A stretch of 58,872 nt of DNA from a virus (Duplodnaviria > Caudoviricetes): positions 1 to 58,872 of IMG/VR virus record IMGVR_UViG_3300032896_000005. One strand, given 5' to 3'. The notes under the pieces were generated by a model. That model was not told the DNA's origin, did not search any database, and saw only the letters and a list, made by a program, of their open reading frames with translations. The translations under genes were made by a program, and so were the position numbers. The stretch's first letter is position 1; each line of letters opens with the position of its first letter. Below are positions 20,942 through 41,337 of this stretch, piece after piece.

Positions 20942-21167
20942 AAAGAAGAAACTTTCCAAAAAATTCCGCAAAAAGCATGAGCGAGCCCAGATTCTTCTCA
21001 CAAAACTCGCAGGAGTACTTGACCAACTCGATTCCGATAAGATATCAATAGAACTAACGTCAGGCGTAGTCTGCTCAAAATACGGTTACGTGCTCCCGTT
21101 CAGGACCGGCTGGGCTGTTCGGATGATGATTGATCCCGGGTATGAGCTGGATGATGACGAGTTCTGA
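20934..21167 (+). CDS. Hypothetical protein with basic N-terminus
   Basis: ATG overlaps the end of the upstream gene. Confidence 0.5.
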   Translation: MSKKKKLSKKFRKKHERAQILLTKLAGVLDQLDSDKISIELTSGVVCSKYGYVLPFRTGWAVRMMIDPGYELDDDEF

Positions 21168-28291: not shown

Positions 28292-28313
28292 TTCTGCTAG
28301 GATTGTATGCATC

Positions 28314-29327
28314 GTGAAAATCTTTGTTACAGGCGTAGCGGGGTTCCTCGGCGCGCATATCGCCCGTGAGGGGATAGCACGCGGCTGGGTGGTCGCGGGT
28401 GTTGACTCTATGCTCGGGGGGGACGCTTCAAATGTCCCCCCCGAGGTTCACTGGCGTATCGCGGATTGCAATGACACGGAGAATTATGATTATCTTCTCC
28501 GGGATGTTGATGTGGTTTATCATTGCGCGGCGGCTCCTTATGAGGGACTGTCGGTTTTTTCTCCTCAGATGGTGTTCTCGAATACTTTGATGAGCACCGT
28601 CGCGTTGCTGCGCGCTGCGATCAACGCTAAAGTCAAACGGTTCGTTTTCTGTTCGTCGATGTCGCGGTACGGTGATCAGCAGGCTCCGTTCACTGAGGAT
28701 ATGCCGGCGAAGCCGGTGGATCCGTATGCTATCGCGAAGGTCGCGTCGGAGAACGTCACCCGGAATCTCTGTGAACTCCACGGGATGGAGTGGATCATCG
28801 TGATTCCGCATAACATTTACGGTCCAGGTCAAAGATATTATGATCCGTATCGTAATGTTGCGGGGATCATGATTAATCGTGTTCTGCTTGGGAAGCCCCC
28901 GATTGTTTACGGGACGGGCCAGCAGGTTCGGTCATTGTCATATATCGATGATGTGACAGGCCCGTTGCTTCAGCTTGCTACGGCTGATGTGGCGGGCGAG
29001 ATTTTCAATTTGGGGCCTGACTCGGAAGCTGAGGAGACCACGATCGTCAATCTCGCGCATCGGGTCAGATCGATTCTTGGGTGCGGGAGGGGGGAGTTGG
29101 AGCCGTTGTTCTTCCCGCCTCGCCCCGCTGAGGTGTTCGAGGCGCATTGCTCTGCGGTTAAGGCCCGTAAGGTTCTGGGGTATGAGCCGACGTGGACGTT
29201 GGACGCCGGGTTGGCTGCTTATGTGAATTGGGTTAAGCTCAGGGGCGCTCGCCCGTTCGAGTATCATCTCCCGCTTGAGATCATCACTGATAAGACCCCG
29301 AGAACGTGGTCAGAGAGACTTATGTGA
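28314..29327 (+). CDS. NAD-dependent nucleotide-sugar epimerase/dehydratase (extended SDR)
   Basis: TGVAGFLG, YHCAA, SSMSRYG, YAIAK (YxxxK), NIYGP. Confidence 0.9.
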   Translation: MKIFVTGVAGFLGAHIAREGIARGWVVAGVDSMLGGDASNVPPEVHWRIADCNDTENYDYLLRDVDVVYHCAAAPYEGLSVFSPQMVFSNTLMSTVALLRAAINAKVKRFVFCSSMSRYGDQQAPFTEDMPAKPVDPYAIAKVASENVTRNLCELHGMEWIIVIPHNIYGPGQRYYDPYRNVAGIMINRVLLGKPPIVYGTGQQVRSLSYIDDVTGPLLQLATADVAGEIFNLGPDSEAEETTIVNLAHRVRSILGCGRGELEPLFFPPRPAEVFEAHCSAVKARKVLGYEPTWTLDAGLAAYVNWVKLRGARPFEYHLPLEIITDKTPRTWSERLM

Positions 29328-29904: not shown

Positions 29905-30529
29905 GCTGGTGTCGGTGGTGACGGCGACGTGGGGGCGTCCTAACGCGCTGCTGAATCATTGCATCCCGAGTGTTTTGCGGCAGTCGCACCGGCCGGTTGA
30001 GCATCTTATCGTGACGGACGGGTTTGACCCGGATTTGAGGGATGTGCTGATCGCGACGGGGTACACCGCTGACGGCACGGAAACGGCGGATGACGGGATC
30101 TATCGGCGGCTGGTGATGCTGGGGCGGAACTGGACCAGTAAAATCAGTGATCCTGGTATCGGGAGCGTCCCCCGGGCGGTCGGCGCTTGGATGGCGGCGG
30201 GGGAGTTCATCTGCTATTTCGATGATGATAATGATTTCCGCGCGGATCATATCGAGAAGCTTCTCGGGGTGATCCGTAATCAGGGTGTGGATATCGCGTT
30301 GTGCCCGTGGGCGGATCATCCGAACCCGGCTTCGTGCGTCGCTGACACGAACACTTTCCTGCACCGGGCGGATGTCCTGAAGTATGGGACGTGGCCGTTG
30401 TCGCCGTATAACGCGGATTACTGCCTGGTGCGGTCGTGGACTGATGATCATCATGTCCCGTGGGGTTTCCATGAGGAGCAGACGGTGGTTTTGAACCGTT
30501 TGAACGGCGGGAGGGGGGCTCGGGAATGA
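29897..30529 (+). CDS. GT2-family glycosyltransferase
   Basis: VSVVTATW.R, SVL.Q, YFDDDN (DxD). Confidence 0.85.
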   Translation: MSELVSVVTATWGRPNALLNHCIPSVLRQSHRPVEHLIVTDGFDPDLRDVLIATGYTADGTETADDGIYRRLVMLGRNWTSKISDPGIGSVPRAVGAWMAAGEFICYFDDDNDFRADHIEKLLGVIRNQGVDIALCPWADHPNPASCVADTNTFLHRADVLKYGTWPLSPYNADYCLVRSWTDDHHVPWGFHEEQTVVLNRLNGGRGARE

Positions 30530-31530
30530 TCACGGTTGTCGTCCCGACGATCCGTGAGGACTGCATCAAACGGTGGCTCACGGAATGGGAAGAAGACCTT
30601 CACGACACCCGCGTCATCATCGTGGAGGACAACCCGACGAAGACGTTCCAGATTTCAGGGGTTGAGCATTACGCGTGGGAGGACATCGACAGGGACCTCA
30701 GGGGGGATTCCTGGGTGATCCCGAGGAGAAGCTCCGCGTGCCGCTCGTACGGGTTCCTGAAGGCCCTGGAAGGCCCTTGTGAGGCGATCTGGACGCTTGA
30801 CGACGACTGCTACCCGGAAACCGGCGTTCGAGGGCGGTACCTGGGCGCTTACACGGCCCAGCTGGGTTACAGCACCCCGGATGACCGGTGGTTCAACACG
30901 ATCCATCACAGCGGCCTGCATCCGAGGGGGTACCCGTACGGGATCCGGGGGCAGGTTAAGCCGGTGATGGTTCATCATGGGCTGTGGTCGAACATCCCTG
31001 ACCTTGACGGGGTGACGCAGCTCGCCAACCCTGATTTCCGGCTCCCCCCGACGACAGCCCCTGAGGTTGTCCCCTATGGGAAGTTCCTTCCGTTCTGCAT
31101 CATGAACGTCGGGTTCCGGAGGGAATTCACCCCCGCCTTGTACATGCTCCTGATGGGGAAGGATAAGGGTCTGGTCCCGTGGGGGTTCGACCGGTTCGAT
31201 GATATCTGGGCGGGGTTGTTCGTGAAGAAAATCGCGGATCACCTCGGGATGACGGTGACTTCCGGGTATCCGGGTATTCATCATTCGAAGGCGAGCGACC
31301 CGCATCGGAACGTTGAATTGGAAGCTGCGGGGATGAGCGCGCATGAGGGGTTCTGGGAGTACATTTCCGGGGTGCGGCTGACGGGTGACAGTGTGAGTGA
31401 ATGCTATGCTGAGCTTGCGCACGCGGTTTGGGGATCGCCTGTCCCCCCGCCTGCGGGGCGTAGTGATTACTGGTTTAAATTGAGTGATGCCATGCGTATT
31501 TGGAATCGTCTTGTCAAGGAACGCCTGTGA
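30526..31530 (+). CDS. RGP / UDP-arabinopyranose mutase-like protein (GT75)
   Basis: VPTIR, SSACRSYGF, TLDDDC, WFNT, RGYPY, HGLWSNIPDLD, C.MN..F.RE, RFDDIWAG, K.I.DHLG, HSKAS, matching plant RGP motifs. Confidence 0.85.
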   Translation: MITVVVPTIREDCIKRWLTEWEEDLHDTRVIIVEDNPTKTFQISGVEHYAWEDIDRDLRGDSWVIPRRSSACRSYGFLKALEGPCEAIWTLDDDCYPETGVRGRYLGAYTAQLGYSTPDDRWFNTIHHSGLHPRGYPYGIRGQVKPVMVHHGLWSNIPDLDGVTQLANPDFRLPPTTAPEVVPYGKFLPFCIMNVGFRREFTPALYMLLMGKDKGLVPWGFDRFDDIWAGLFVKKIADHLGMTVTSGYPGIHHSKASDPHRNVELEAAGMSAHEGFWEYISGVRLTGDSVSECYAELAHAVWGSPVPPPAGRSDYWFKLSDAMRIWNRLVKERL

Positions 31531-32228
31531 ATATGATCGTCATTGTCCCTACCAGGTCCCGTCCGGAGCAGTGCGCCCGGCTTATCAAATCGTTCGAGGA
31601 GACGACGGACACCGCGAGTTTGCTGTTCGTCATCGACGGGGATGATGAATCGTATGAGGGGTTCGACTGGCATGGGCATCGTTGCGCGGAGCTGAACCCG
31701 CGTGGGTCATTGACGCAGAAGCTGAACAACACGGTGAAGAACATCATTGATGATTATGATGAGATAATGTGGCAGGGTGATGATAACGAGTTCATCACCC
31801 CTCATTGGGATACGAGGCTTCTCGAAGCCCGGGAGGAATGGGGTTCCGGGTGGTTGTACCCGAATAACGGGCGACGTTCGGATGTCCCGGAGTCCTGGAC
31901 GGTCAGCAGTGACGTTGTGGAGGCTGTCGGCTGGTACGCGAACCCTGTCCTCGGGCATTATTACATTGATAACTCGGTGGCGGAGATCGGGAAGAGAGCC
32001 GGGTTGATCCGGTGGGTTCCTGATGTGCAGATCAGGCATCATCATTACTCGGTGGACCCGGACGCGGAATATGATGATTTGTACCGGGAGACGGAGAAAC
32101 GTTTCGGGGGGTCTGATCTGCAGATTTATCAGCAGTGGCAGAAGTCGCCGCAGGTGACCGGGATTGTGTCGTCGCTGCGCCGGAAGTTCAACCCCGATGT
32201 GAACTGGATCCTTTCCCGGGTAAGATGA
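31527..32228 (+). CDS. GT-A fold (GT2-like) glycosyltransferase
   Basis: IVPTRSRP, FVIDGDD, GDD...T..WD, HYYIDN, HHH. Confidence 0.75.
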   Translation: MNMIVIVPTRSRPEQCARLIKSFEETTDTASLLFVIDGDDESYEGFDWHGHRCAELNPRGSLTQKLNNTVKNIIDDYDEIMWQGDDNEFITPHWDTRLLEAREEWGSGWLYPNNGRRSDVPESWTVSSDVVEAVGWYANPVLGHYYIDNSVAEIGKRAGLIRWVPDVQIRHHHYSVDPDAEYDDLYRETEKRFGGSDLQIYQQWQKSPQVTGIVSSLRRKFNPDVNWILSRVR

Positions 32229-32268
32229 AAATTAGAATTTGCGATCCTTCCGGAGGGAGGTTCAATAT

Positions 32269-32577
32269 ATGGGTCTCAACATGGGTCAGTGGCAGATAGC
32301 GGGGACCGTCGCGACCACCGTTTGCACTTTGAATATCCCCCCGGGGCCGTACAATATAGCGATGTACAATGTTAACACCGCTGTGACGTTTTACATGGGG
32401 GTGGGTACGTCGTCGACGACCGCCCCGCCTGGGTTGAGCACGAACAGCGGGATGGTGATGCATTCCATCCCGACGTACTGGAATGGGTATCAGGGGGCGT
32501 CGGGGGGTTTTTTGTGGGTGATCGCGAGTACCGCCCCGTCGTCGTTCAATTATATTTTGGATACGCAGCAGAGGTGA
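32269..32577 (+). CDS. Small Ser/Thr-rich protein
   Basis: SD GGAGG. Confidence 0.6.
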   Translation: MGLNMGQWQIAGTVATTVCTLNIPPGPYNIAMYNVNTAVTFYMGVGTSSTTAPPGLSTNSGMVMHSIPTYWNGYQGASGGFLWVIASTAPSSFNYILDTQQR

Positions 32578-32578
32578 T

Positions 32579-32926
32579 ATGCCTAGGATTAACCTGCCCC
32601 CCGGCTGCGCCGGCTTCGCAGATGGTGATAAGAAGTATTATGCTGACAAGCCGGGCGGGTTCGTGAATCTTGACGAGGTTAAGGACGCGAACGCACTGCG
32701 GAAGTTGAAGAATCAGGATTACGCCAGCGCCGGTCTTGTCGACGCCGGACCGGAGAAGCTGTTCGTTCATAAGGCCCGCAAGCCGGGTATGTGGTGTCGA
32801 CGGTGCAATCGGATTTGGCATGCCTGGGCGCGTACCTGTAATAAATGCGGCGACGAAACGATTTCCGAGCTAGAATTGGAAGCGCCACCTTTCCCGAAGG
32901 ACATACACGGGGGTATGATTCCTTGA
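32579..32926 (+). CDS. Zinc-ribbon hypothetical protein
   Basis: SD GAGGTG; CRRC...CNKCG. Confidence 0.65.
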   Translation: MPRINLPPGCAGFADGDKKYYADKPGGFVNLDEVKDANALRKLKNQDYASAGLVDAGPEKLFVHKARKPGMWCRRCNRIWHAWARTCNKCGDETISELELEAPPFPKDIHGGMIP

Positions 32927-33126
32927 CAGAGGCCGGGGAGTTCGAGTTCGACTGCACGATCACCAAAGCGGTCAACCCGGTTTCCTATCAGGAAGTCGAG
33001 TTGACACCCCCGGTCAGGATCTCCACCTGGGAGCAATACGATCTGTTCTACGACAGGTGGGAGCGGTTCTGCCGGGATGCCGCTGACCGGGGTGTGGACC
33101 TTCGGATGGCGCGGTTTACCCTGTAA
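32923..33126 (+). CDS. Hypothetical protein
   Basis: TTGA overlap with the upstream stop. Confidence 0.5.
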   Translation: MTEAGEFEFDCTITKAVNPVSYQEVELTPPVRISTWEQYDLFYDRWERFCRDAADRGVDLRMARFTL

Positions 33127-33127
33127 A

Positions 33128-33525
33128 TGGGAGCAGCCCCGCAGTTGCGAAATGCGGGGCTGCTGCCAGGGGAAGGGATGGCTGTCATTTCCGTGGGTGT
33201 ACTCGACCCACCTGCAGCATGACAGCCGTACGGGCGGAAGGGCCGCATCCGCTCCCTCCGGCTCCGGGAGGGTCCCGACTGCTGGTGAAACCGGGACGTC
33301 TGTGACCTATGTCTATCACGGACGGGGGATTCCCGGTGTCAGCTAGTCAGGCACGTTTGACAGGGTGACCCCGCCTGGCAGGTGCGCCCTCCCCGTAAAT
33401 GACTCGGATCATGGGGCGTCCTTCCGGCGGGTCAAGCGTCCGGTGGGGACCAGGCGGGGTCGGGGGTTCCTGCCGGTGGCAGGAGATGGTGGGGTCGTCC
33501 GCACGACAGGATCATCCTCCCCCAA
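33128..33525 (+). ncRNA. Candidate large structured non-coding RNA, family not recognised
   Basis: About ten consecutive or nested helices; G-U pairs favour the + strand; no credible ORF. Confidence 0.6.
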
Positions 33526-33600
33526 CAACCAAGGAAAACAGGGATCATGGGATGCCCTTAACGCACATAATCAAAGCGATTTGATCGTGCGGACGACAGC

Positions 33601-33777
33601 TTATTCAAAATCTATGCGGAGTTCCACTTCACCGTCATAACACTGCGCTGCGACGACGGTCGCGTGGATGATGGTCCGGAGAAGGTCCGTGTCGGGGGAG
33701 GTGTTCCCGAGGATCGCCTTGGCGAGGCGTAGTTCCTCGTCACGACGGATGGGGTACCGGTCGGGGGCTCCCATCAC
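33601..33777 (-). CDS. Small hypothetical protein
   Basis: Hand translation MGAPDRYPIRRDEELRLAKAILG...IDFE; coupled to the upstream minus-strand gene. Confidence 0.5.
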   Translation of the reverse strand: MMGAPDRYPIRRDEELRLAKAILGNTSPDTDLLRTIIHATVVAAQCYDGEVELRIDFE

Positions 33778-33941
33778 TGTTCGATTTCCGTCGTGTCGAA
33801 CGCGACGTACCCGTGATTCCCGTCGCTGTCGTCGTGGTCCGAGACGTAGAAGCGGGTGAGGATCTCCTCCCCGTACTCGTCGCGGATCTCATGGTTTTGC
33901 GGGAGCTGAAGAAGCTCCGCGACTGCCTCTCGAACCAGCAT
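33774..33941 (-). CDS. Small acidic hypothetical protein
   Basis: MLVREAVAELLQLP...; upstream TTGACA-N18-TAGGGT promoter. Confidence 0.55.
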   Translation of the reverse strand: MLVREAVAELLQLPQNHEIRDEYGEEILTRFYVSDHDDSDGNHGYVAFDTTEIEQ

Positions 33942-34043
33942 GTGTCCCGTCCCTTTTCCCATTTGACCCTCCGACCCTACCCGTGGGCCGGTACCCCTGT
34001 CAAACACATCCGGCGGGGGTTGTATTCCCAGGAAGGAAAGCAG

Positions 34044-34613
34044 ATGACATTGTACGGCCGCTCAGATCTTATGAGCGTATCAGTTCCCGTTTCGTCCGGA
34101 GGGTGCGGCAAAACCCACACTCGACCCGTCCGCAACGGAGCCCCAGCCCGTGACTTCCGTCTCGACTGCCCAGGCTGCGAGGCGTTCCTCAAAGGCGGCG
34201 GGCGGACTGTCCTGACCACTGTACCAGGAGACAAGGAGAACGGCATCCCGTCGTCGCAGAAACGGGTCGCGGACATGGACCCCTGCTGGGGCGGCAGCCC
34301 GGAGTCGGTGCCGGAGACACCTGATGAGAAGCAGTACACGAGCAGGCGGAACAAGCTCGGCGCGGAGCAGCTGGAGTGGGTTCGGGCGTTGGCGGCTGCG
34401 AAGCAGGCGGGGATCGAGATCCCTGAGATGGCGATGGAGATGCTGTCACGTCGGCTTCCGGGGGTTGTGGCGGGTGAGGTTGTCCGTAATGAGCTGAGCG
34501 TCCCGGAGTACTCCCTTGATGATCTCTCGACGGAGAAGCTGAAGCAGATGTGCAAGGAGCAGGGTTTGCCGTCGAACGGGACCCGCGCGAAGCTTATCGA
34601 GCGTTTGAGTTAA
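34044..34613 (+). CDS. Protein with C-terminal SAP domain
   Basis: LDDLSTEKLKQMCKEQGLPSNGTRAKLIERL; SD GGAAGGA. Confidence 0.75.
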   Translation: MTLYGRSDLMSVSVPVSSGGCGKTHTRPVRNGAPARDFRLDCPGCEAFLKGGGRTVLTTVPGDKENGIPSSQKRVADMDPCWGGSPESVPETPDEKQYTSRRNKLGAEQLEWVRALAAAKQAGIEIPEMAMEMLSRRLPGVVAGEVVRNELSVPEYSLDDLSTEKLKQMCKEQGLPSNGTRAKLIERLS

Positions 34614-34621
34614 AGAGGCAT

Positions 34622-34825
34622 GTGAGCAGAGCCGCCGGTTTGTGCAGGAGATGCGGGGGGCCGAAGAGAGGCCGGGCGGCGAGGGTCGCCGCGCCTATAG
34701 CTCAATGCAACAAATGTGGAGACGATATCTGTGCCCGTCATGCTTGCTGGGTCGGAGATTTCTATATTTGCACGAAGTGTAATCGTGCGATGGGTAGACG
34801 CGTTCCCGATTCTTACAGAGACTGA
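34622..34825 (+). CDS. Small Cys-rich zinc-finger protein
   Basis: CRRC, CNKC, CARH, CTKC. Confidence 0.55.
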   Translation: MSRAAGLCRRCGGPKRGRAARVAAPIAQCNKCGDDICARHACWVGDFYICTKCNRAMGRRVPDSYRD

Positions 34826-35445
34826 GCAAACTCGTAGGTATCCTCCACTTGTGTTAGAACTGTATTGAGATCTGGACAGTTGATCCATTCACTTACACGC
34901 CAGCCGCCGTGATAGTAGGGAAATGTCGCTGCTCCGTAAATTTTGTTGCATATGCCTTGGATGATAGCTTCATCTGCTACTGTGCCTGGTTGATGCCATA
35001 CCATCTGACCTTGGATTTCCTTACCTGTGTATTTGAAAAACCGAATGTTGCTGTAATGGATGTTCATGCCAGGGCGACTCGTGCTGTAGCCGATTTTTAG
35101 TACGTCGCCGTAAGTCGTTGCGTAAAGGTAACCGTCACCTTTACGGTGCCAGGGATGTTTATCGCGTCGCATGGCTAGAAATTCTGCGGTCTCAGCCATG
35201 CGCGTTGCTGCTGCTGCTTGACGACAAGTATCACATTGTGTGGAGGTACCTGCCTTCAAGCTTTCCCAGCGAACATTCAACGGGTTATCACATAGTTCAC
35301 AGTTGCACGGGACCCACCAACTGCTATAGATCACAGGGGTCCCGTCTGCTTTGTGTCGTTTTCGATCGGGTACGCGAAATGGCGGCCCTGTCACACGAAG
35401 ATGCCCGTAGTTTGGTTGCGGCGCAGGTACTTTCAACGCTCTCAC
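34813..35445 (-). CDS. Free-standing GIY-YIG (T5orf172-like) endonuclease with N-terminal Cys domain
   Basis: YGHLRV...CNCELC...V....L..G....C..C; GYLY...LKIGYS...E...EW; promoter TTGACA-N16-TAAGCT-N7-GTG(35445). Confidence 0.75.
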   Translation of the reverse strand: MRALKVPAPQPNYGHLRVTGPPFRVPDRKRHKADGTPVIYSSWWVPCNCELCDNPLNVRWESLKAGTSTQCDTCRQAAAATRMAETAEFLAMRRDKHPWHRKGDGYLYATTYGDVLKIGYSTSRPGMNIHYSNIRFFKYTGKEIQGQMVWHQPGTVADEAIIQGICNKIYGAATFPYYHGGWRVSEWINCPDLNTVLTQVEDTYEFAQSL

Positions 35446-35480
35446 GCGAGTGAGCTTACCCGGATTGGAGGTGATGTCAA

Positions 35481-36483
35481 ATGACCACACCTGTGGTTCC
35501 TGTCGGATTGAGTCCGTATATCTCCCCTTTGACTCTGCAGCAAGCACCGACAGGTATATTAAATAGATTTCACGACGATCCCCGCGACGAGTTCCATCTC
35601 GTTCGACCCTGCGGCGAATAACGCCGAGTTGTGGAACATGTGCGGCCGGGCGACGTCCATGGTCGATCAGTTCTGCAATCAGCTGCTCCGCGCGACGATT
35701 GACGTTGAGGTGATGCGGGGACCTGATTTCCGGGTGACGGTCGGCCCGCAGGCTGGGGGGCAGTCGCAGACTCCCTATTGGGGGAACGCGGGGTCGAACG
35801 CCCGGCTGATCATGTCCCGGTGGCCGGTGCTGGCGGTGAACAGCGTCGCGGTGTGCCCTAACAACCTGTGGCCGAGGTCATGGTCGACGATCCCCACGGG
35901 TTACGCGGAGCCGGAGCTGCCCCCCTACGGGATTTACAATTCGGTGGCCCCCGCTGATGACGCGTACGGGGGGCAGGCGGTTATCGTCGCGCCGGGGTAC
36001 ATTAACCGGAATTACGGGCGTAACGGGTATGTCATTCAAGTGACTTACATGAATGGGTGGCCGCATACGACGTTGACGGAGCCGGCGACGGCGGGGACGA
36101 CCACGTTGAGTGTGACGGACACGACGGGGTGGGCTCTGACTGATTACGCGGGGGTGATCACGGGGGCTACGGGGACGATCCGGGATGCGGGGCAGCAGGA
36201 GGTCGCGCATTGCAGCAGCGCGTCGACTACCTCCGGCCCGGGGACGCTCACGTTGAGTTCCCCCACGACGTATCAGCATGAGACCGGGACGGTTTTCACT
36301 ACTTTGCCGGCGGCGGTGGAGCAGGCGTGTATTTTGTTCTGCTGCGCGCAGGCTCTGGTGCGTGGCGCGACTTCAACGACGATTCATTCGATTGGGGGTC
36401 ATGCGGCTTCGTCGGGGATGGACATTGTTGATCTGAACACTGAAGCCGAGGTGCTTTTGCATCCCTTTAAACGGACTATCTGA
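35481..36483 (+). CDS. Putative head-tail adaptor protein, with a frame break at 35556-35565
   Basis: SD GGAGGTG + ATG 35481 (MTTP...APTGI) joins the +1 frame (DFTTIP...RATSMVDQFCNQ...LPAAVEQAC...LLHPFKR). Confidence 0.75.
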
Positions 36484-36992
36484 TGGCGAAGAAGAAGCAT
36501 CATGAGTCGGCTGCGCATATCGCGGCCCGGAAACGACGGGAGGCGCAGCGGCGTGCTTTGCGTGAGGCGGAGCGTAAGAAGCTCCGGGCGGCGCGTGAGG
36601 CGGCCAGGAGACGACGGGATGCTATCCGGAGAGCGGACCGTGAGGCGGCTCGTCGTCGTCGCCGGGCGATTGAGAAGGTGCTGCGGGAGGAAGCGCGTCT
36701 GCGGCGGGATGAGCTGCGTCGGCTGGCGCGTGAATTGGCGCGGGAGAAACGGGACGCGGAACGGAGATTGCTCCGGGCTCAGGCGCGTGCTCTGCTGCGG
36801 CAGAAATATCTGACCCGGATGGTTTTGTCTGCGAACGGCACGTGGGTGTGGACGCGGGTTTCGGGGCCTTCTTATAACCAGCTGTCGCGGGCGGTGGCTG
36901 GGCAGAAGGCTTATTATCCGAGTTACGCGCGGAGGAATCTGAGTAGTTCCAAGGCGCAGAAGGCGTGGCCTTCCTGGTCGTCTTCGTCCTAA
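36483..36992 (+). CDS. Arg/Ala/Glu-rich highly charged helical protein
   Basis: TGATG coupling; ~90 aa of R/E/A helix. Confidence 0.65.
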   Translation: MAKKKHHESAAHIAARKRREAQRRALREAERKKLRAAREAARRRRDAIRRADREAARRRRRAIEKVLREEARLRRDELRRLARELAREKRDAERRLLRAQARALLRQKYLTRMVLSANGTWVWTRVSGPSYNQLSRAVAGQKAYYPSYARRNLSSSKAQKAWPSWSSSS

Positions 36993-37021
36993 TGGACTTT
37001 CCCCCGTAAAAATGATATAAA
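36993..37021 (+). promoter_or_regulatory. Sigma70-type promoter for the tail genes
   Basis: TGGACT-N17-TATAAA with TGn extension. Confidence 0.55.
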
Positions 37022-37039
37022 TCTGAGGAGAGTATTTTC

Positions 37040-37558
37040 ATGCCGATTGTGACTGTGCAGTCGTATCTTCTCAGTCTCCTCGATCAGCTTCCCCTCCCTT
37101 ACGGGATGCCGAACGCGAACGCTTTCATCACCCCCCCCGACCCGTATGTGCAAGCCCGTGTCCCGGCTATTTACATTTGGCCGTCGGACGGTGAGGAGAA
37201 CCGGTCGTCGGAGCTGGGGGGGACTGTCCCGAGGAACTCCGGGGTGGGTACCCCTTCGGGGACGAAGGGGATGCTGCACCGGGTTGATATTTACATTACG
37301 TGGACAGGCGCGGTGAATTCAGGGTCGCAGCAGGACCCTTATTTCCCTGCGGTTGTTGATGCGGTGATGTTCGCTTTGCGGTTCGCTCAGCCGAACCCGG
37401 CGTATTTGACGGACCCTAACACTAATTTGACTTCGACGGTTTACAATACCGGCGAGACGCAGCGCTATCGTCTGGGTGTGGAAGCTTTGGATGATGAGCG
37501 GTTTTTGCGGTATGACACGCTCCTGACTGTGAGCGTGTGGGAAATTATGAACGCGTAA
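37040..37558 (+). CDS. Putative tail terminator/completion protein
   Basis: Size and position immediately before the tail tube; SD GAGGAG. Confidence 0.6.
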   Translation: MPIVTVQSYLLSLLDQLPLPYGMPNANAFITPPDPYVQARVPAIYIWPSDGEENRSSELGGTVPRNSGVGTPSGTKGMLHRVDIYITWTGAVNSGSQQDPYFPAVVDAVMFALRFAQPNPAYLTDPNTNLTSTVYNTGETQRYRLGVEALDDERFLRYDTLLTVSVWEIMNA

Positions 37559-37567
37559 AGGAGATGT

Positions 37568-38923
37568 GTGGCGCTTGGCGGGCCTAACATTTATCCGAGC
37601 GTACTCAGCTGGCTGGGTATCGCTCGGGAACTGACGGGTGGCGTCCCGGTTCTCCCGACGTACACTCAGCCTTTGGATCAGGGTTCCTTTGAGCCTGAGG
37701 ACACCCCTAAGTTCCTTCAGGACAAGGCTATCCGTGGTGCGATGACGGACTTGTTCTACGAGACGCTCGGGGTTGAGTCCGCGACGTTCTCGTTCGGCGG
37801 CCCTAACTTCCTCGACACTCACGGGTATTTCTTCGATAACGTCTTCGGGGACCTTTCAACGACGTCGGCGTCTCTGGCGACTCCGGGTACGGCGGCTTCC
37901 GCGCTGGCGGTGGGGGCTATCGCGGCGACGCTCGCGAGCGCTATCCCCGTCGGGTGGACGGTCGGGACTGCGTTGCAGCTCGGCACCGCCGCTACAAGCA
38001 ACACCCCGGGCTGCTATTCGAATGAGGTTGTGATCGTCAGCAGCACCACCCCGGCGTCTGTCGTCACGTTCGCTAACACTCCTTTGCGGTTCACCCACTC
38101 GACCAGCCTTGTCGCCGGGTCGCAGGTGTTCAATATCGCGACCGGCCCTTACACGCATCGTTTCGCGGCTTTGAACTCGCAGCTGGGGTACGGGGGGGCG
38201 TTCGGCGCTCAGCCGCCTACGCATACGTTCACTGATGTCACGAACATTGTTAACACGTTCACGAACAGCACTTACGGGACGTCCCCGACTAACACGTACG
38301 GCGCTCGGTACTATCCGTTCTCCTGCTTGAAGAACATTGATTTCGCGGGGAACGCTGAGCAGCTCCTCGGGATCAAGATGGCGGGGGATTCGTGGTTGTC
38401 GGTGCCGTGGCCGTCTGGGTCTTCCCCGACGTTGAACGTCACGGGAGCACGGCCGATTCCTAACTGGAACTCGACGGTTACAACGGTCGGCCCTTCAGGG
38501 CAGACGATCGCGACGGACGTCGGGGAGTTCTCCGTCAGCTTTAAGCGGCAGACGCAGGTGTACTGGACGGTTCAGGGCAGCCAGACTCCGTTCGTCATCG
38601 CCCGTGGTCCTTTGACGATGGACGGGACTATCCAGTATGACCCGACGAATAATGAGTTCCCTCTGGATTACATGCTGTTGAACGCGCAGGCTCCGATGAC
38701 GATCACCTGCTCGAACACGGGGATCCCGAACTCCGGGTCTGCTTTCACGTTGACGTTCACTGGGTCTCAGGTTGCGAACATTAAGTCGAAGATTATGCGG
38801 TCGAAGGCTCTCATCGGGTACGGGAACACGTTCGAAGGTGTAGCGAACAGTGTTGACATCGGCGGCTCCGGTGGTCTCGGCCCGGGGACTATCACTTTGG
38901 TCAACGGGATCCCCACCTATTAA
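37568..38923 (+). CDS. Major tail tube protein
   Basis: WLGIARE...G.P N-terminus; precedes the frameshifting chaperone pair; S/T-rich insertion. Confidence 0.78.
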   Translation: MALGGPNIYPSVLSWLGIARELTGGVPVLPTYTQPLDQGSFEPEDTPKFLQDKAIRGAMTDLFYETLGVESATFSFGGPNFLDTHGYFFDNVFGDLSTTSASLATPGTAASALAVGAIAATLASAIPVGWTVGTALQLGTAATSNTPGCYSNEVVIVSSTTPASVVTFANTPLRFTHSTSLVAGSQVFNIATGPYTHRFAALNSQLGYGGAFGAQPPTHTFTDVTNIVNTFTNSTYGTSPTNTYGARYYPFSCLKNIDFAGNAEQLLGIKMAGDSWLSVPWPSGSSPTLNVTGARPIPNWNSTVTTVGPSGQTIATDVGEFSVSFKRQTQVYWTVQGSQTPFVIARGPLTMDGTIQYDPTNNEFPLDYMLLNAQAPMTITCSNTGIPNSGSAFTLTFTGSQVANIKSKIMRSKALIGYGNTFEGVANSVDIGGSGGLGPGTITLVNGIPTY

Positions 38924-38970
38924 GGCGGGTTTACGTTTTGTCGAATACCAGGAAGGCTAAAGGGAAGCTA

Positions 38971-39611
38971 ATGGCTCGTGTTGAGCTGCCGTCAGGCGGC
39001 TGGGTTGAATACCGGGATCAGTTGAAGGCGATTGACCGGTTCGCTGTTCAGGATGCGGTGTTCCTTGAAGTGAAGGATGGTGTTAACCGGGCGGCGTTGG
39101 GGTTCGCGAATGATATCCGGAACGCCCTCCTGGGGCGGATCATCACCAGCTGGTCGTTCGGGACCCCGACGCCGGCTGACGCGAAGGACGTCGCGGCTGC
39201 TGATGTGGTTATCGGGAACGCTATGGACCTTGATGATTACAATGCTCTCGCGGATGCGGTTCAGCCGCTGGTGGATAAGGTTTCCGGGACGGTTAAGAAG
39301 GATAAAGCAGACCCAAAAAAGCTTTCCGGCAGCTGAGGGATGTTTTCATCTGGAAGCATATGATCAGCTCATCGGCGTGGGCTGATCATATTCAGGATGA
39401 CCCTGAGTTCAGGCAGCCTCCGTTCCCTGACGGGTTCCCGATGAAGATTCTTGTGTACGGGTATTTTGAGCGGAACTGGAATTGGCATCCACGTCAGGTG
39501 GATGAGCTTACACTGGAAGAGTTGGAGTGGCTTCCTGTTTATGATGATGCGGTTGGTGAGGCTGCTGAGTTCGTGCGGAAGCAGAGCCGGTTTCAGGACA
39601 GAAGAGAGTAG
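38971..39611 (+). CDS. Tail assembly chaperone G (to 39336) and G-T fusion via -1 frameshift
   Basis: A_AAA_AAG slippery heptamer at 39315-39321; -1 frame open to 39611. Confidence 0.85.
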
Positions 39612-39624
39612 CGTGATCGTGTAA

Positions 39625-40785
39625 ATGGCAAGGATCCTTTTTCATAGCTGCGCGCCTTGGGCTTGCTCGGGGTACGGGGTTGAGACTGCGATTTGGACGC
39701 AGGAACTTCAAAGGCTGGGGCATGAGGTTATCATCTCCACCTACTGGGGTATCCAGGGTGGCGCGACGATGTGGAACGGGATGACGATCCTCCCGGGGTA
39801 CGGCCCTAACTATTGTTCCACTTCCCTGTATCAGCATGCTAAGGCGTACAACCCGGATTTGATCATCACGTTGGGTGATGTGTGGGTGATGAACGCGGAT
39901 CTCCTGCGGGAGCTGCCGGTTGCGCATTGGCTTCCGTCTGATTGCCGGCCGATGTCTTTGGCGGACCGGGGGGTGGTTGACAGTTCGGGTGCTCAGCTGA
40001 TCGCGATGAGCGAGTTCGGGTTGGAGCGGTTCAAACGGGCTGGTTTTGATCCGGTGTATGTTCCTCATGCGATCGACACGGATGTGTTCCGGCCGTTGCC
40101 GAATCGGGGGGAGCTGCGTGAGGCGGCGGGGTTGCCGGAGGGCATGTTCGTGGTGGGGGTCAACCAGGCGAATAATGATGCGATCCGGAAGGCTTTGCCT
40201 GAGCAGATGCTGGCGTTCGCGAAGTTCGCTGAACAGCATCCTGGTGAGGTGATGCTGACGTTGCACACGGGGGTGCATCAGGAGGGCGGGCAGGATCTGG
40301 AGGCCGTCGCGGAGAACCTCGGGATTGTTGATTTGATCCGGATTGTGGATCAGTACCGGTACACGGCGGGGATGATCAGCCAGCCGGATTTGAATGAATG
40401 GTACAACGTTATTGATGTTTTGTCGCAGACGGTGTACGCGGAGGGTTTCGGGTTGCCGGTGATGGAGGCGCAGGCGGCGGGGACCCCGGTTATCACCACG
40501 GATGCGTCGTCGATGACGGAGATTAACCCTCATGGTATCCGGGTGGGGGGGCAGCCTTTCTGGAACGGGGTGCATAAGGGCTGGTGGGTTTCCCCGTCTG
40601 TGAGTGAGATCGCGGATGCTTATGAGCGGGCGTTCCAGGAGCGCGGGAATGTTGATTCCGGGAAACTCCGCAGGTTCGCTCGGGAATACTCGATTGACAG
40701 GGTTTCGGTGGAGTTCATGCAGCCGGCGGTTGAAACTCTCATCAAGAGGGTTGCGCATAAGGTGTCCAGGCCGTCGGAAGGTTAA
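39625..40785 (+). CDS. GT4-family (GT-B) glycosyltransferase
   Basis: SGYG, PHAID...F.P, RK, EGFGLPVMEAQAAGTPVI (ExFG...E). Confidence 0.9.
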   Translation: MARILFHSCAPWACSGYGVETAIWTQELQRLGHEVIISTYWGIQGGATMWNGMTILPGYGPNYCSTSLYQHAKAYNPDLIITLGDVWVMNADLLRELPVAHWLPSDCRPMSLADRGVVDSSGAQLIAMSEFGLERFKRAGFDPVYVPHAIDTDVFRPLPNRGELREAAGLPEGMFVVGVNQANNDAIRKALPEQMLAFAKFAEQHPGEVMLTLHTGVHQEGGQDLEAVAENLGIVDLIRIVDQYRYTAGMISQPDLNEWYNVIDVLSQTVYAEGFGLPVMEAQAAGTPVITTDASSMTEINPHGIRVGGQPFWNGVHKGWWVSPSVSEIADAYERAFQERGNVDSGKLRRFAREYSIDRVSVEFMQPAVETLIKRVAHKVSRPSEG

Positions 40786-40804
40786 CTGGTGAGGGGTGCG
40801 CGGG

Positions 40805-41290
40805 ATGGATTTGGGTGATCTCCCCGCGTATCTGAAGGCGTTGCAGGACGCCGCCGCGTCGGCGGTTGTCCCCGCTGCGAACGCGATGGCGGGGCAGGTG
40901 CAGGATCGGGTTCAGGCGCTTCTGCGGGAAACGTCGCATCCTCCGTTCACGTTCTTCAAGGCGGTCGCGGGTCGTCCCCCCGCTTATGCGTCGGGGAACC
41001 TTTCCCGGTCGGTTACGTTGACGCCTGCGTACGGGGCGGTGCGGGCGACTGCGGGTGTGGGGTCGCATTTGCGGTACAGCGCGTTGCAGGAGTTCGGCGG
41101 GTCCACTTGGCCGAATAACAGCCCTTGGATGCATTGGCGTAACCCGCATCCGTGGTGGAAGAGACGGGTGACTGTGCCTGAGCACCCGTATATGCGTCCT
41201 GCTGTGGAGCAGTGCATTTCCGATGGCAGTTTGACGCGTGTGAGTATGGATGCTTTTTATGACCGTATCCGTCCGTTCCTTAACAGGTGA
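40805..41290 (+). CDS. HK97 gp10-like neck/tail completion protein
   Basis: PP...SGNLSRS, Y...QEFG, HPYMRPA. Confidence 0.8.
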   Translation: MDLGDLPAYLKALQDAAASAVVPAANAMAGQVQDRVQALLRETSHPPFTFFKAVAGRPPAYASGNLSRSVTLTPAYGAVRATAGVGSHLRYSALQEFGGSTWPNNSPWMHWRNPHPWWKRRVTVPEHPYMRPAVEQCISDGSLTRVSMDAFYDRIRPFLNR

Positions 41291-41320
41291 CGGACGGTAC
41301 GGTCATTTTTCTTTTTCTTT
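41259..41320 (+). terminator. Intrinsic terminator overlapping the 3' end of the gp10-like gene
   Basis: ATGACCGTA(T)CCGTCCGT / ACGGACGGTACGGTCAT followed by TTTTCTTTTTCTTT. Confidence 0.75.
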
Positions 41321-41337
41321 GATTGGAGGTGGTCAGC

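What the first reader, a model, noticed from the sequence alone, without database searches (positions are those of the whole stretch)
35481..35570. Candidate TTA-triggered ribosomal bypass in a head-tail gene, beside a homing endonuclease
Seen: strong SD + ATG 35481 reads MTTP...APTG-ATA(codon 26)-TTA(codon 27)-A-ATA-GAT. The rest of the protein (DFTTIP...) is in the +1 frame, which has a TAA at 35560, so a simple +1 slip fails. Skipping 7 nt between the two matched ATA codons gives APTGIDFTTIP, whereas reading TTA gives a 46-aa dead end. An antisense GIY-YIG-like endonuclease lies directly upstream. Known: T4 gene 60 bypassing uses matched take-off/landing codons and is linked to the adjacent MobA endonuclease; TTA is the rare bldA-dependent codon of streptomycetes; TTA-mediated bypassing has been proposed for the terminase of Streptomyces phage phiHau3. 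Inference: a mobile cassette of endonuclease plus micro-bypass that protects the cut site and may tie virion assembly to host tRNA-Leu(UAA) status.
Basis: partly seen in the sequence, partly recalled or inferred. Interest (0 to 1): 0.85.

Follow-up and report, generated by a model that had tools for sequence, protein, structure and literature searches.

The report
TTA-led coding gap in phage adaptor gene
A phage head-to-tail adaptor gene is interrupted by seven extra bases that start with the very rare codon TTA, and many related phages carry similar short TTA-led interruptions, often next to homing endonuclease genes, so ribosomes most likely hop over them.

Summary
ATG 35481 opens 26 codons that end in ATA. 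TTA, A and ATA follow, and the rest of the gene lies in the +1 frame. Uninterrupted homologues, up to 94% identical, read APTGIDFTTIP straight across the junction. The 7 bases stand unchanged in contigs of three wetland runs.

The feature recurs. 16 of 71 evaluable unique relatives carry gaps of 4-16 nt in the same N-terminal stretch. 14 of 15 distinct gaps begin with TTA and one begins with TAG. Lengths fall in all three frame classes, and the in-frame gaps hold stops. 7 of 15 have synonymous take-off and landing codons.

TTA is the rarest sense codon here, 4 of 14,297. The 120 tRNA genes found in relatives include no Leu-UAA.

Endonuclease genes or remnants lie directly upstream in 7 of 17 gapped loci and in none of the intact ones.

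Best reading: UUA-triggered translational bypassing of the phiHau3 terminase kind, coupled to homing endonucleases as in T4 gene 60/mobA. There is no protein evidence. The host is unknown, so the bldA/Streptomyces link is not supported. The window's endonuclease family is unconfirmed.

The parts
34622..34825 (+). Small Cys-rich ORF (67 aa, GTG start behind AAGAGG), the conserved upstream neighbour of the adaptor gene. In endonuclease-free relatives it ends a few bases before the adaptor start.
   Evidence: L004 has the homologous 62-aa ORF at 2717-2905, followed by the adaptor at 2914. tblastn finds the ORF in 59 loci.
34813..35490 (-). Inserted ORF of 225 aa (P0122), a putative free-standing homing endonuclease. 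It has an N-terminal Cys cluster and a C-terminal Y-x-Y...KIG...E...EW pattern, and lies in a low-GC island.
   Evidence: GC is 0.465-0.56 in windows starting 34700-35500, against about 0.60-0.70 in most flanking windows. It is absent between the same two genes in L004 and in every other locus. There are 9 related clusters among 1.84 billion representatives. No curated family matches. The Atlas gives a lead to T5orf172/MUG113/GIY-YIG clusters at 0.91-0.92.
35467..35471 (+). Shine-Dalgarno GGAGG, 9 nt before ATG 35481.
   Evidence: Similar GGTGATG-type leaders stand before the start codon in relatives.
35481..35558 (+). First coding segment: 26 codons, MTTPVVPVGLSPYISPLTLQQAPTGI, ending in the take-off codon ATA (35556-35558).
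   Evidence: Compared with P0002's N-terminus it differs at 1 of 26 residues.
35559..35562 (+). Coding gap TTAA. TTA (35559-61) is the A-site codon at take-off. TAA (35560-62) closes the +1 frame.
   Evidence: The 7-nt insertion is seen in the alignment with 5 relatives. TTA is 4 of 14,297 codons, the rarest sense codon.
35563..35565 (+). Landing codon ATA, identical to the take-off codon and 7 nt downstream of it.
35566..36483 (+). Second coding segment: it resumes at GAT, runs 305 codons (DFTTIP...KRTI) and ends with the stop. It encodes a gp6-like head-to-tail adaptor with an inserted beta-barrel.
   Evidence: AF2 model pLDDT 84.3. VIA-align matches phage 812 neck 8q01_b (Z 8.6, 181 aligned), Mycofy1 head-to-tail 9lw9_C (Z 8.5) and GTA neck 6toa_D (Z 8.2). 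BFVD hits are 'Gp6 domain containing protein' (E 1.1e-6) and 'Head to tail adaptor' (E 4e-5).
35619..35621 (+). Frame-0 stop TAA. If TTA is read as Leu, translation ends here after 46 residues.

Best explanation
The gene encodes a head-to-tail adaptor and is made from two out-of-frame segments by translational bypassing. Ribosomes start at ATG 35481 and read 26 codons. They stall with peptidyl-tRNA-Ile on AUA (35556-58) in the P site, because the A-site codon UUA (35559-61) is the rarest codon of this phage and is decoded slowly or not at all. The peptidyl-tRNA unpairs, the mRNA slides 7 nt, and the tRNA re-pairs with the identical AUA (35563-65). Decoding resumes at GAU 35566 and gives the family-typical APTGI-DFTTIP junction and a 331-aa protein. 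Ribosomes that do read UUA end after 46 residues.

The gap is one of a family of TTA-led gaps found in the first 13-27 codons of this gene in related phages. The gap most likely persists because it breaks the target site of a homing endonuclease inserted just upstream, without changing a constrained protein sequence.

Shown here: the anatomy, the recurrence, the rarity of TTA, the codon matching, and the association with endonucleases.

Inferred: the hop itself, its efficiency, and the protective role.
For: (1) Uninterrupted homologues encode APTGIDFTTIP across the junction.

(2) Recurrence. 87 related loci reduce to 74 unique gene bodies, of which 71 can be evaluated. 16 are interrupted in the same N-terminal stretch and 55 are intact. 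Among the 120 best protein clusters, 19 lack the N-terminal segment.

(3) Of 15 distinct gap sequences, 14 begin with TTA and one begins with TAG (binomial 8e-25 against 1/64).

(4) The displacements are 4, 4, 5, 6, 7 (six loci), 10 (three loci), 11, 12, 15 and 16 nt. Twelve loci shift +1, two shift +2, and three are in frame, each of the three with a stop inside the gap (TAG, TGA, TGA). No single frameshift or four-base reading covers all of these.

[quoted passage not shown] Four further gaps keep two of the three codon positions unchanged (ACA/TCA, ACT/GCC, GGT/AGC, TAT/TAA), and two have GAT/GGC.

(6) TTA is the rarest sense codon, 4 of 14,297 codons in long ORFs of the window and 5 of 21,534 in 74 homologue bodies. 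None of the 55 intact genes has TTA in its N-terminal coding part.

(7) The tRNA genes found in four relatives number 42, 35, 40 and 3. Their Leu anticodons are CAA, GAG and CAG only; none of the 120 is UAA, although Ile-UAU and Arg-UCU are present.

(8) The first segment keeps its start codon and open frame in all 17 gapped loci. Among loci gapped after the Asp codon it shows pS 0.49-0.82 against pN 0.09-0.40.

(9) The gapped gene is the only adaptor copy in three complete genomes with terminal repeats (G001, G002, G007) and in the window.

(10) The 7 nt stand in contigs of three runs from three samples.

(11) Endonucleases. LAGLIDADG genes lie directly upstream in L024, L044 and L053. An endonuclease VII/HNH gene lies upstream in L033, remnants in L019 and L032, and the window has its own ORF. 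That makes 7 of 17 gapped loci, against 0 of 39 intact loci anchored by the Cys-rich ORF (Fisher 5e-4 on the earlier count of 5/13 against 0/39).

(12) Precedent. UUA-led inserts of 7 and 10 nt occur in three Streptomyces (pro)phage terminase genes, and a junction peptide was found in E. coli with UAA in place of UUA (PMC10732093: abstract, section 3.4 and passages read). The gene 60 bypass cassette travels with MobA, uses GAU/GAC or matched GGN codons, and has a stop or hungry A-site codon (10.1101/2022.08.31.505936: sections 12, 15, 16 read).
Against: There is no RNA, ribosome or protein evidence. Only DNA contigs were available, and no RNA run is listed.

In 8 of 15 distinct gaps the landing codon is not synonymous with the take-off codon, and two of these (L024, L058) pair poorly.

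No recurrent stimulatory RNA structure was found. MFE z-scores over 17 sites range from -2.1 to +1.3. No internal Shine-Dalgarno sequence is evident.

For the window alone, a +1 shift after UUA is read (APTGIL-IDFTTIP) cannot be excluded.

TTA stands at conserved Leu positions in two distant relatives (L079, L081), so it is not unreadable everywhere.

The host is unknown, and only half of this phage genome is in the window, so a phage or host tRNA-Leu(UAA) cannot be ruled out.

Endonuclease genes are common in these phages generally. One lies downstream of an intact adaptor gene in L013 and another at window 21086-21841. 10 of 17 gapped loci have none upstream.

The window's upstream ORF is not shown to be a nuclease.
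Confidence: 0.65

Rival explanations
1. This would be a programmed +1 frameshift or four-base reading at UUA-A. UUA is read as Leu, the ribosome then shifts one base and continues at AUA GAU, giving APTGIL-IDFTTIP, two residues longer than the family.
For: For the window the arithmetic works: TTA at 35559-61, skip A at 35562, then ATA GAT. 12 of 17 gapped loci are in the +1 class. One intact homologue (P0057) reads IDLPDW at this site, so extra residues can be tolerated here.
Against: It cannot explain the two +2 gaps (L024, L026) or the three in-frame gaps that contain stops (L044, L058, L078). The codon after TTA in frame 0 is not consistently rare. tRNA-Leu on UUA re-pairs poorly with UAA/UAG (inference). 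The synonymous take-off and landing pairs would be an unexplained coincidence. The junction is highly conserved in the family.
Confidence: 0.12
2. The gene would be expressed in two pieces or as a truncated protein. The 46-aa product of the first frame is discarded or acts alone, and the adaptor is started anew at TTG 35629 or ATG 35638 without its first ~50 residues.
For: Gene callers annotate exactly this, a 281-aa protein from ATG 35638. 19 of 120 related clusters are called from internal starts. The first residues of the model are of low confidence; the first 10-residue block has pLDDT 56.
Against: The +1 frame opens exactly at the gap. The 22 codons between the gap and TTG 35629 (DFTTIPATSSISFDPAANNAEL...) are conserved with intact homologues. 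The first segment stays open, keeps its start codon, and shows fewer non-synonymous than synonymous differences in gapped loci. No Shine-Dalgarno sequence is visible before 35629/35638 (inspection only).
Confidence: 0.08
3. The allele would be defective. The 7 nt are a repair scar or an insertion spread by homing-endonuclease drive, and the phage survives by complementation in mixed infections.
For: Endonuclease drive can spread costly alleles. Manning and Atkins discuss the MobA element as possibly mildly deleterious (section 12 read). Gapped and intact alleles coexist at over 90% identity; cluster 2 holds five proteins of 331-335 aa and two of 281 aa.
Against: Random scars would not begin with TTA in 14 of 15 cases or end in a synonymous codon in 7 of 15. 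Complete genomes carry the gapped gene as their only copy. The allele is present in three samples. The first segment is conserved.
Confidence: 0.07
4. The 7 extra bases would be a sequencing or assembly artefact.
For: The record is a metagenome assembly of about 50% completeness.
Against: JGI, Logan and ENA each hold an assembly carrying the same ORFs. Contigs of three runs from three samples cover the site with no difference. Analogous gaps occur in 16 other loci from other metagenomes.
Confidence: 0.01

Closest known systems
UUA-led coding gaps in the large terminase genes of Streptomyces phage phiHau3, prophage StrepC.1 and a S. catenulae prophage (proposed by Smith et al. 2013, known to me only through Antonov et al. 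2023, PMC10732093: abstract, section 3.4 and passages read; supplements closed)
   Same: Short frame-breaking inserts of 7 or 10 nt have UUA at the 5' end. The flanks are contiguous in homologues. UUA is extremely rare. The junction is conserved, so extra residues are unlikely. A landing codon is invoked. Bypassing is the favoured reading.
   Different: The gene is different (head-to-tail adaptor, not terminase). The phages are different: uncultured, about 130 kb, from wetland samples, with an unknown host. The site lies only 13-27 codons into the gene. There are far more cases (17 of 72 unique alleles against 3 of 100 ter genes). Lengths range from 4 to 16 nt and include +2 and in-frame gaps with stops. 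No conserved stem-loop or Shine-Dalgarno sequence was found. Homing endonucleases are associated, and the word 'homing' occurs 0 times in that paper. I could not see the phiHau3 take-off and landing codons, which are in the supplements.
T4 gene 60 bypass cassette with the MobA homing endonuclease (Manning and Atkins, bioRxiv 10.1101/2022.08.31.505936: abstract and sections 12, 15, 16 read; review PMC5009743: passages read)
   Same: A non-coding insert sits in a highly conserved stretch of an essential phage gene, next to a free-standing endonuclease gene. [quoted passage not shown] The A-site codon is poorly decoded (a stop or a hungry codon). The gap is retained after the endonuclease is lost. 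Endonucleases of different families are found at the same site.
   Different: There is no sequence homology. The gap is 4-16 nt rather than 50 nt. No take-off stem-loop, gap Shine-Dalgarno sequence or dedicated nascent-peptide signal is evident. The trigger is a sense codon (TTA) in 14 of 15 distinct gaps. The gene is not split into two ORFs with added tails. Protection from cleavage is shown for MobA (as cited there) but is untested here.
Hungry-codon and stop-codon hops in E. coli, and byp elements of Magnusiomyces mitochondria (known to me from the reference list and introduction of PMC10732093 and from recall)
   Same: Peptidyl-tRNA detaches when the A site is starved and re-pairs a few to tens of nucleotides downstream at a cognate or near-cognate codon. 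Third-base and larger mismatches are tolerated at landing.
   Different: The E. coli cases are low-level laboratory events or a mitochondrial system. Here the sites are natural, recurrent and needed for an essential virion protein.
+1 programmed frameshifting (prfB, Ty, influenza PA-X; recalled)
   Same: A slow A-site codon induces a change of frame.
   Different: Those shifts go to an overlapping codon and move by one base. Here the +1 frame is closed by TAA/TAG at the shift site, and the displacements cover all three frame classes.

Membership tests
UUA-triggered short translational bypass (phiHau3 terminase kind) | Short insert that breaks the frame and is absent from homologues whose flanks are contiguous | tested here: met
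   There is a 7-nt insertion against 5 aligned relatives. Homologues read APTGIDFTTIP across the site.
UUA-triggered short translational bypass (phiHau3 terminase kind) | Insert begins with UUA, which is otherwise very rare in the genome | tested here: met
   TTA stands at 35559-61. It is 4 of 14,297 codons, the rarest sense codon. 14 of 15 distinct gaps in the family start with TTA.
UUA-triggered short translational bypass (phiHau3 terminase kind) | Landing codon that can pair with the take-off peptidyl-tRNA | tested here: met
   The window has ATA/ATA. In the family, 7 of 15 distinct gaps are synonymous and 8 are not.
UUA-triggered short translational bypass (phiHau3 terminase kind) | 5' stem-loop and internal Shine-Dalgarno stimulators | tested here: inconclusive
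   MFE folds of 17 sites give z-scores from -2.1 to +1.3 with no shared helix. No Shine-Dalgarno sequence is seen by eye.
UUA-triggered short translational bypass (phiHau3 terminase kind) | Trans-gap protein product (junction peptide) | not testable with these tools
   It needs mass spectrometry or a reporter.
UUA-triggered short translational bypass (phiHau3 terminase kind) | Host in which tRNA-Leu(UAA) is limiting (bldA-type) | not testable with these tools
   The host is unknown. Indirect evidence only: no Leu-UAA among 120 phage tRNA genes of relatives.
T4 gene 60 / MobA bypass cassette | Homologous 50-nt gap in a topoisomerase gene, with take-off stem-loop, UAG and nascent-peptide signal | tested here: not met
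   The gene is different, the gap is 7 nt, and no stem-loop is found. It is analogous, not a member.
T4 gene 60 / MobA bypass cassette | Gap lies beside a free-standing homing endonuclease gene | tested here: met
   The window has an inserted ORF at 34813-35490. In relatives, 6 further gapped loci have an endonuclease gene or remnant directly upstream.
T4 gene 60 / MobA bypass cassette | Gap protects the carrier genome from cleavage | not testable with these tools
   It needs a cleavage assay.
GIY-YIG / T5orf172 homing endonuclease (the window's upstream ORF) | Match to a curated family model or a solved nuclease | tested here: inconclusive
   Pfam, PHROGs, NCBIfam and PDB sequences give no match for P0122. 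One of 9 relatives hits an 'HNH endonuclease' PHROG at 9.7e-4. The AF2 single-sequence model has pLDDT 35 and is unusable. The Atlas feature search lists T5orf172/MUG113/DUF723/GIY-YIG clusters at 0.91-0.92; this is a lead only.
gp6-like head-to-tail adaptor | Fold shared with solved or annotated adaptor/neck proteins over most of the chain | tested here: met
   VIA-align gives Z 8.2-8.6 over model range 1-306 to neck proteins of phage 812, Mycofy1 and GTA. BFVD lists 'Gp6 domain containing protein' at E 1.1e-6 and 'Head to tail adaptor' at 4e-5. Z near 8 is moderate. Pfam and PHROGs give no sequence match.
+1 programmed ribosomal frameshift | Shift to an overlapping codon in an open +1 frame with P-site re-pairing | tested here: not met
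   The +1 frame has TAA at 35560-62. The family includes +2 and in-frame gaps. A shift after UUA is decoded remains possible for the window alone.

The most novel reading that the evidence does not exclude
In the unknown hosts of these ~130-kb phages UUA may be close to an unassigned, stop-like codon. Phages and their homing endonucleases would exploit this as a general trick: a few bases headed by TTA can be dropped into a conserved, endonuclease-targeted stretch of an essential gene and are skipped by the ribosome, acting as an intron at the level of translation. Different endonuclease families go with different gap positions. All three intact LAGLIDADG genes go with gaps after the Thr codon, the endonuclease VII/HNH gene with a gap after Asp, and the window's ORF with a gap after Ile. 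Gaps outlive the endonucleases. In two relatives TTA even stands where the adaptor's stop codon should be. The family would offer a natural series of 15 bypass sites that move the ribosome 4 to 16 nt.
Probability: 0.3. Interest if true: 0.9.

Novelty: new variant of a known kind. Interest (0 to 1): 0.8.

Why it matters
By the papers read here, natural translational bypassing is known from the T4 gene 60 lineage, from yeast mitochondrial byps and, as a partly tested proposal, from three Streptomyces (pro)phage terminase genes.

This locus and its relatives add a second gene family, with 15 distinct natural TTA-led gaps. They vary in length, frame class, take-off codon and landing match. That is the kind of comparative series needed to work out what short hops require.

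They also link the two known phage systems: the UUA trigger of phiHau3 and the endonuclease coupling of gene 60/mobA. This suggests that 'insert a skippable gap to immunise a conserved target site' is a recurrent strategy rather than a T4 curiosity.

For annotation there is a practical lesson. Gene callers cut these adaptors at internal starts (19 of the 120 best clusters), so such recoding is systematically hidden in metagenomes.

My four literature searches found no paper in the held library that describes UUA-led gaps in adaptor genes or ties UUA gaps to homing endonucleases.

Tried and rejected
Searches that gave nothing:
- Nucleotide and protein searches of the phage collection with the locus found nothing.
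- Pfam and PHROGs were blank for the adaptor and its neighbours, apart from a SAP domain in 33813-34613.
- The genome-contig scan gave one 4-kb contig of a Steroidobacteraceae MAG at 46% identity. This is too weak to name a host.
- Terminase tblastn gave only relatives under 40% identical, with mixed hosts.

Other TTA gaps elsewhere:
- Two scans of the window were noisy. By my inspection only 35559 had coding-looking sequence on both sides.
- A tblastn screen of neighbouring genes across the loci for frame-split matches found none. The largest gene counts were 83, 71, 52 and 33 loci. The screen cannot see short first segments, and my SAP query was out of frame.

Structures and folds:
- RNA folds showed no shared structure (the control was a mononucleotide shuffle only).
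- The AF2 model of the upstream ORF without an alignment was useless, pLDDT 35.
- Foldseek against the PDB gave no match at E<=0.001 for the adaptor. The VIA-align second look and BFVD did.

Other checks:
- The window-against-L005 identity profile shows lower identity over 35480-35627 (0.66-0.73) than over the next 150 nt (0.83-0.93). Similar dips occur elsewhere, so I draw no co-conversion tract from it.
- The tree is the quick IQ-TREE search, because the careful one did not finish. L047 and L051 were left out as too short.
- No RNA holder is listed among the sequencing runs.

Tool problems:
- The look-up of sequencing runs was unreachable three times before it answered.
- Supplements of PMC10732093, which hold the phiHau3 site sequences, were closed, so I could not compare take-off and landing codons.

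Considered and rejected: a self-splicing intron (4-16 nt is too short), transcriptional slippage (there is no homopolymer), and a second intact adaptor copy (one search finds one copy per genome).
Full report
WHAT IS THERE

The window is a whole IMG/VR virus record of 58,872 bases, linear, about 50% complete. At 35467-35471 there is a GGAGG, and 9 nt later ATG 35481. Frame 0 reads MTTPVVPVGLSPYISPLTLQQAPTG, then ATA (35556-58), TTA (35559-61), AAT, AGA and on to TAA at 35619-21, 46 residues in all. The +1 frame is closed by TAA at 35560-62. It is then open from ATA (35563-65) and GAT (35566) to the stop at 36481-83.

The +1 reading (P0001, 306 aa) has 627 relatives at E<=1e-3 in the large protein collection. 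Full-length members are about 327-335 aa and read ...QQAPTGIDFTTIPA... without interruption. P0002 is 94% identical. A DNA alignment with five related loci shows a 7-column insertion in the window only. Its predicted junction APTGI-DFTTIP is what uninterrupted homologues encode.

IS IT REAL DNA?

Yes. The exact 46-aa and 281-aa ORFs are on record from JGI, Logan and ENA assemblies, with contigs of 58,872, 63,346 and 132,553 nt. Logan contigs of three runs from three wetland samples and studies cover the site with no differing letter and no gap:
- X1, the whole stretch, possibly the source sample;
- X2, record 3, 35524-35695;
- X3, record 9, 35499-36100.

Contigs cannot show minor variants.

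WHAT THE GENE IS

Pfam and PHROGs do not recognise the protein. An AlphaFold model built on 121 sequences has pLDDT 84.3. VIA-align matches neck and adaptor proteins over the whole chain:
- phage 812, 8q01_b, Z 8.6, 181 residues aligned;
- Mycofy1 head-to-tail interface, 9lw9_C, Z 8.5;
- GTA neck, 6toa_D, Z 8.2.

Residues 166-249 form an inserted beta-barrel. BFVD lists 'Gp6 domain containing protein' (E 1.1e-6 and weaker) and 'Head to tail adaptor' (E 4e-5). I read the protein as a gp6-like head-to-tail adaptor, with moderate confidence.

THE INTERRUPTION RECURS

I collected 87 related loci. They reduce to 74 unique gene bodies. Three sit at contig edges, which leaves 71. In 16 of the 71 the N-terminal segment and the body are separated by a short insert. 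The other 55 are intact, and none of them has an in-frame TTA in its N-terminal coding part.

The gaps, written as take-off codon [gap, ending in the landing codon] resume codon, are:
- window: ATA[TTAAATA]GAT
- L015, L029, L033: GAT[TTAGGAC]
- L032: GAT[TTAGGGC]
- L017: GAT[TTAATCTGGC]
- L019: GAT[TTAATGCGAC]
- L027: GGT[TTACCTGAGC]
- L024: ACA[TTATCGAAATT]
- L025: ACA[TTAGGGCCCCCGGTCA]
- L026: ACT[TTACC]
- L044: ACA[TTATGAGAGACC]
- L053: ACT[TTAAGCC]
- L058: ACA[TTAGGGGCCTGAGCT]
- L034: TAT[TTAA]
- L070: TAT[TTAC]
- L078: TCT[TAGTCC]

Three regularities stand out.

1. 14 of 15 distinct gaps begin with TTA and the last begins with the stop TAG (binomial 8e-25).
2. Displacements fall in all three frame classes. 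Twelve loci shift +1 and two shift +2 (L024, L026). Three are in frame (L044, L058, L078), and each of these holds a stop codon.
3. In 7 of 15 distinct gaps the codon just before the resume codon is synonymous with the take-off codon: ATA/ATA, GAT/GAC twice, ACT/ACC, ACA/ACC, TAT/TAC and TCT/TCC (binomial 1.5e-5 against 4/64). Of the eight others, four keep two of the three codon positions unchanged (ACA/TCA, ACT/GCC, GGT/AGC, TAT/TAA) and two have GAT/GGC, where a G-U pair in the middle position would keep pairing. L024 and L058 match poorly.

Independently, 19 of the 120 best protein clusters lack the N-terminal segment because gene callers started them downstream or in another frame. One cluster (P0057) reads IDLPDW in frame.

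TTA IS SPECIAL HERE

In + strand ORFs of at least 200 aa in the window (selected by GC3-GC2, first 10 codons skipped), TTA is the rarest sense codon: 4 of 14,297, with ATA next at 19. A cruder gene set gave 10 of 17,380. In the 74 homologue bodies TTA occurs 5 times in 21,534 codons.

The window has no tRNA gene. Four relatives carry tRNA genes: 42, 35, 40 and 3 by ARAGORN. Their Leu anticodons are CAA, GAG and CAG only. None of the 120 is UAA, although Ile-UAU and Arg-UCU are present. A fifth relative (G001) has none.

THE GAPPED GENES LOOK FUNCTIONAL

In all 17 gapped loci the first segment keeps a start codon and an open frame up to the TTA, and the body frame runs on for 255-308 codons. 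Among the six loci gapped after the Asp codon, the first segment differs at pS 0.49-0.82 against pN 0.09-0.40. This assumes that the gap predates their divergence.

The gapped gene is the only adaptor copy in three complete genomes with terminal repeats (G001, G002, G007), in two partial ones, and in the window.

On a quick maximum-likelihood tree the gap label needs at least 12 changes, 8 of them forced by well-supported branches. Near-identical bodies can carry different gaps: L058 and L070 are at path lengths 0.041 and 0.040. A gapped gene can also sit among intact ones, as L019 does among L018, L021 and L023. The 5' end therefore turns over quickly, as expected if it is exchanged by recombination.

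ENDONUCLEASES

In endonuclease-free relatives a small Cys-rich ORF ends a few bases before the adaptor start (L004).

In the window, 655 nt are inserted there. They have low GC (0.465-0.56 against about 0.60-0.70 in most flanking windows) and hold an antisense ORF of 225 aa (P0122). That ORF has only 9 related clusters among 1.84 billion representatives. It has no match in Pfam, PHROGs, NCBIfam or PDB sequences. The Atlas gives a feature-based lead to T5orf172/MUG113/DUF723/GIY-YIG clusters at 0.91-0.92. Its Y-x-Y...KIG...E...EW pattern resembles that family from my recollection only. The 'GIY-YIG-like' label is thus a lead, not a result.

In relatives, bona fide endonuclease genes occupy the same slot:
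- LAGLIDADG genes in L024 and L044 (Pfam LAGLIDADG_3 at 25.0 and 23.4 bits against a cut-off of 22.5; phrog_4645 at 5e-28 and 9.7e-39) and in L053 (57% identical to the L024 protein);
- an endonuclease VII/HNH gene in L033 (phrog_3322, 2e-35);
- remnants in L019 and L032.

All six of these loci are gapped. With the window that makes 7 of 17 gapped loci. Among 39 intact loci anchored by the Cys-rich ORF there are none. Three of those have other inserts that are not recognisable nucleases. Fisher's test on the earlier count of 5/13 against 0/39 gives 5e-4.

All three intact LAGLIDADG genes go with gaps after the Thr codon. The endonuclease VII/HNH gene and its remnant go with gaps after the Asp codon.

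Against over-reading: endonuclease genes are common in these phages. One lies downstream of the intact adaptor in L013 and another downstream of the gapped adaptor in L034. An Endonuclease_7 gene lies at window 21086-21841. Ten gapped loci have no endonuclease upstream.

MECHANISM

The joint pattern is what bypassing predicts: a poorly decodable first codon, any displacement, stops tolerated inside the gap, frequent synonymous take-off and landing codons, and a restored conserved junction.

In the window, peptidyl-tRNA-Ile on AUA would face UUA in the A site. It would unpair, re-pair 7 nt on at the second AUA, and decoding would resume at GAU. An adaptor is needed in few copies per virion (general knowledge of tailed phages), so a modest efficiency could suffice.

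What is shown is the sequence anatomy and its comparative statistics. The hop, its efficiency and any stimulators are inferred. I found no shared RNA structure. For the window alone, a +1 shift after UUA is read cannot be excluded.

COMPARISON WITH WHAT IS KNOWN

UUA-led inserts of 10 nt (two in phiHau3) and 7 nt (StrepC.1 and a S. catenulae prophage) in terminase genes were proposed to be bypassed. A junction peptide was found in E. coli with UAA in place of UUA. Only 3 of 100 ter genes carry such inserts (PMC10732093: abstract, section 3.4 and passages read; supplements closed).

The T4 gene 60 cassette travels with the MobA endonuclease, disrupts its recognition site, and survives loss of the endonuclease. 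It is found with VSR or GIY-YIG endonucleases instead, uses matched GGN or GAU/GAC codons, and has a stop or a hungry AGG in the A site (10.1101/2022.08.31.505936: abstract and sections 12, 15, 16 read).

The present family works like the first and is organised like the second, but it is a member of neither by homology. My searches found no paper on UUA gaps in adaptor genes or on their link to homing endonucleases.

WHAT REMAINS OPEN

The host is unknown. The samples are wetland metagenomes, the best cultured terminase relatives are under 40% identical with mixed hosts, and there is one weak MAG hit.

Two distant relatives use TTA at conserved Leu positions. In two others TTA stands exactly where relatives have the adaptor's stop codon, overlapping the next gene's ATG. 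This hints that UUA can act stop-like in some hosts, but it is unexplained.

VERDICT

This is a new variant of a known kind of recoding, with an unusually rich comparative series, and it still awaits protein-level proof.

Noticed in passing
L045:3883; L056:3232; L005:1291: TTA stands where the adaptor's stop codon lies in close relatives. L045 has ATC TTA TG.. against GTG TAA TG in L040. L056 has TGG TTA TGG against TGG TAG in L060 and L083. In both, TTATG overlaps an ATG, which in L045 is the next gene's start (MPIV). In L005 TTA is the last sense codon. If TTA were read as Leu, the ORFs would run on about 50-80 codons out of register.
   Followed up: partly
L119 (G002 31000-46000), L120, L121, L122, L123: Relatives carry tRNA genes (42, 35, 40 and 3 by ARAGORN), most of them in large arrays that cover nearly all amino acids. 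None has a Leu-UAA or Leu-UAG anticodon. The complete relative G001 has no tRNA gene at all.
   Followed up: partly
window 6942-10388 (+): The large terminase gene (Terminase_6N and Terminase_6C) carries an intein (Intein_splicing 8.6e-23, Hint domains) after the nuclease domain, and a zinc ribbon near the C-terminus.
   Followed up: no
window 21086-21841 (-): A second free-standing endonuclease gene: Endonuclease_7 (5.9e-18) behind a repeated Cys motif that is also found in the LAGLIDADG genes of L024 and L044.
   Followed up: no
window 2703-4031, 28212-29327, 30526-31530, 39625-40785 (+): Sugar-nucleotide and glycosylation genes sit inside the phage: UDP-glucose/GDP-mannose dehydrogenase, NAD-dependent epimerase/dehydratase, a reversibly glycosylated polypeptide homologue, and a group 1 glycosyltransferase among the structural genes.
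   Followed up: no
window 34622-34825 (+) and 33813-34613 (+): A conserved 62-67-aa ORF with eight Cys precedes the adaptor gene in most relatives (59 loci by tblastn). The gene before it ends in a SAP domain (4.6e-7).
   Followed up: partly
L013:2962-3400; L034:3866-4600: HNH endonuclease genes lie directly downstream of the adaptor gene, in one intact locus (L013) and one gapped locus (L034). The adaptor gene is flanked by homing sites on both sides.
   Followed up: partly
P0057 (protein only, no DNA held): An uninterrupted homologue reads APTGIDLPDWTTIP, three extra residues at the gap site beginning with Leu. It could be an in-frame, stop-free version of the same kind of insert.
   Followed up: no
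L003:3375-3929; L086:2367-2927: Two distant intact relatives have an extra ORF of 184-186 aa between the Cys-rich ORF and the adaptor. It gives only weak PHROG matches (unknown function; major tail protein at 2.6e-3) and is not a recognisable nuclease.
   Followed up: partly
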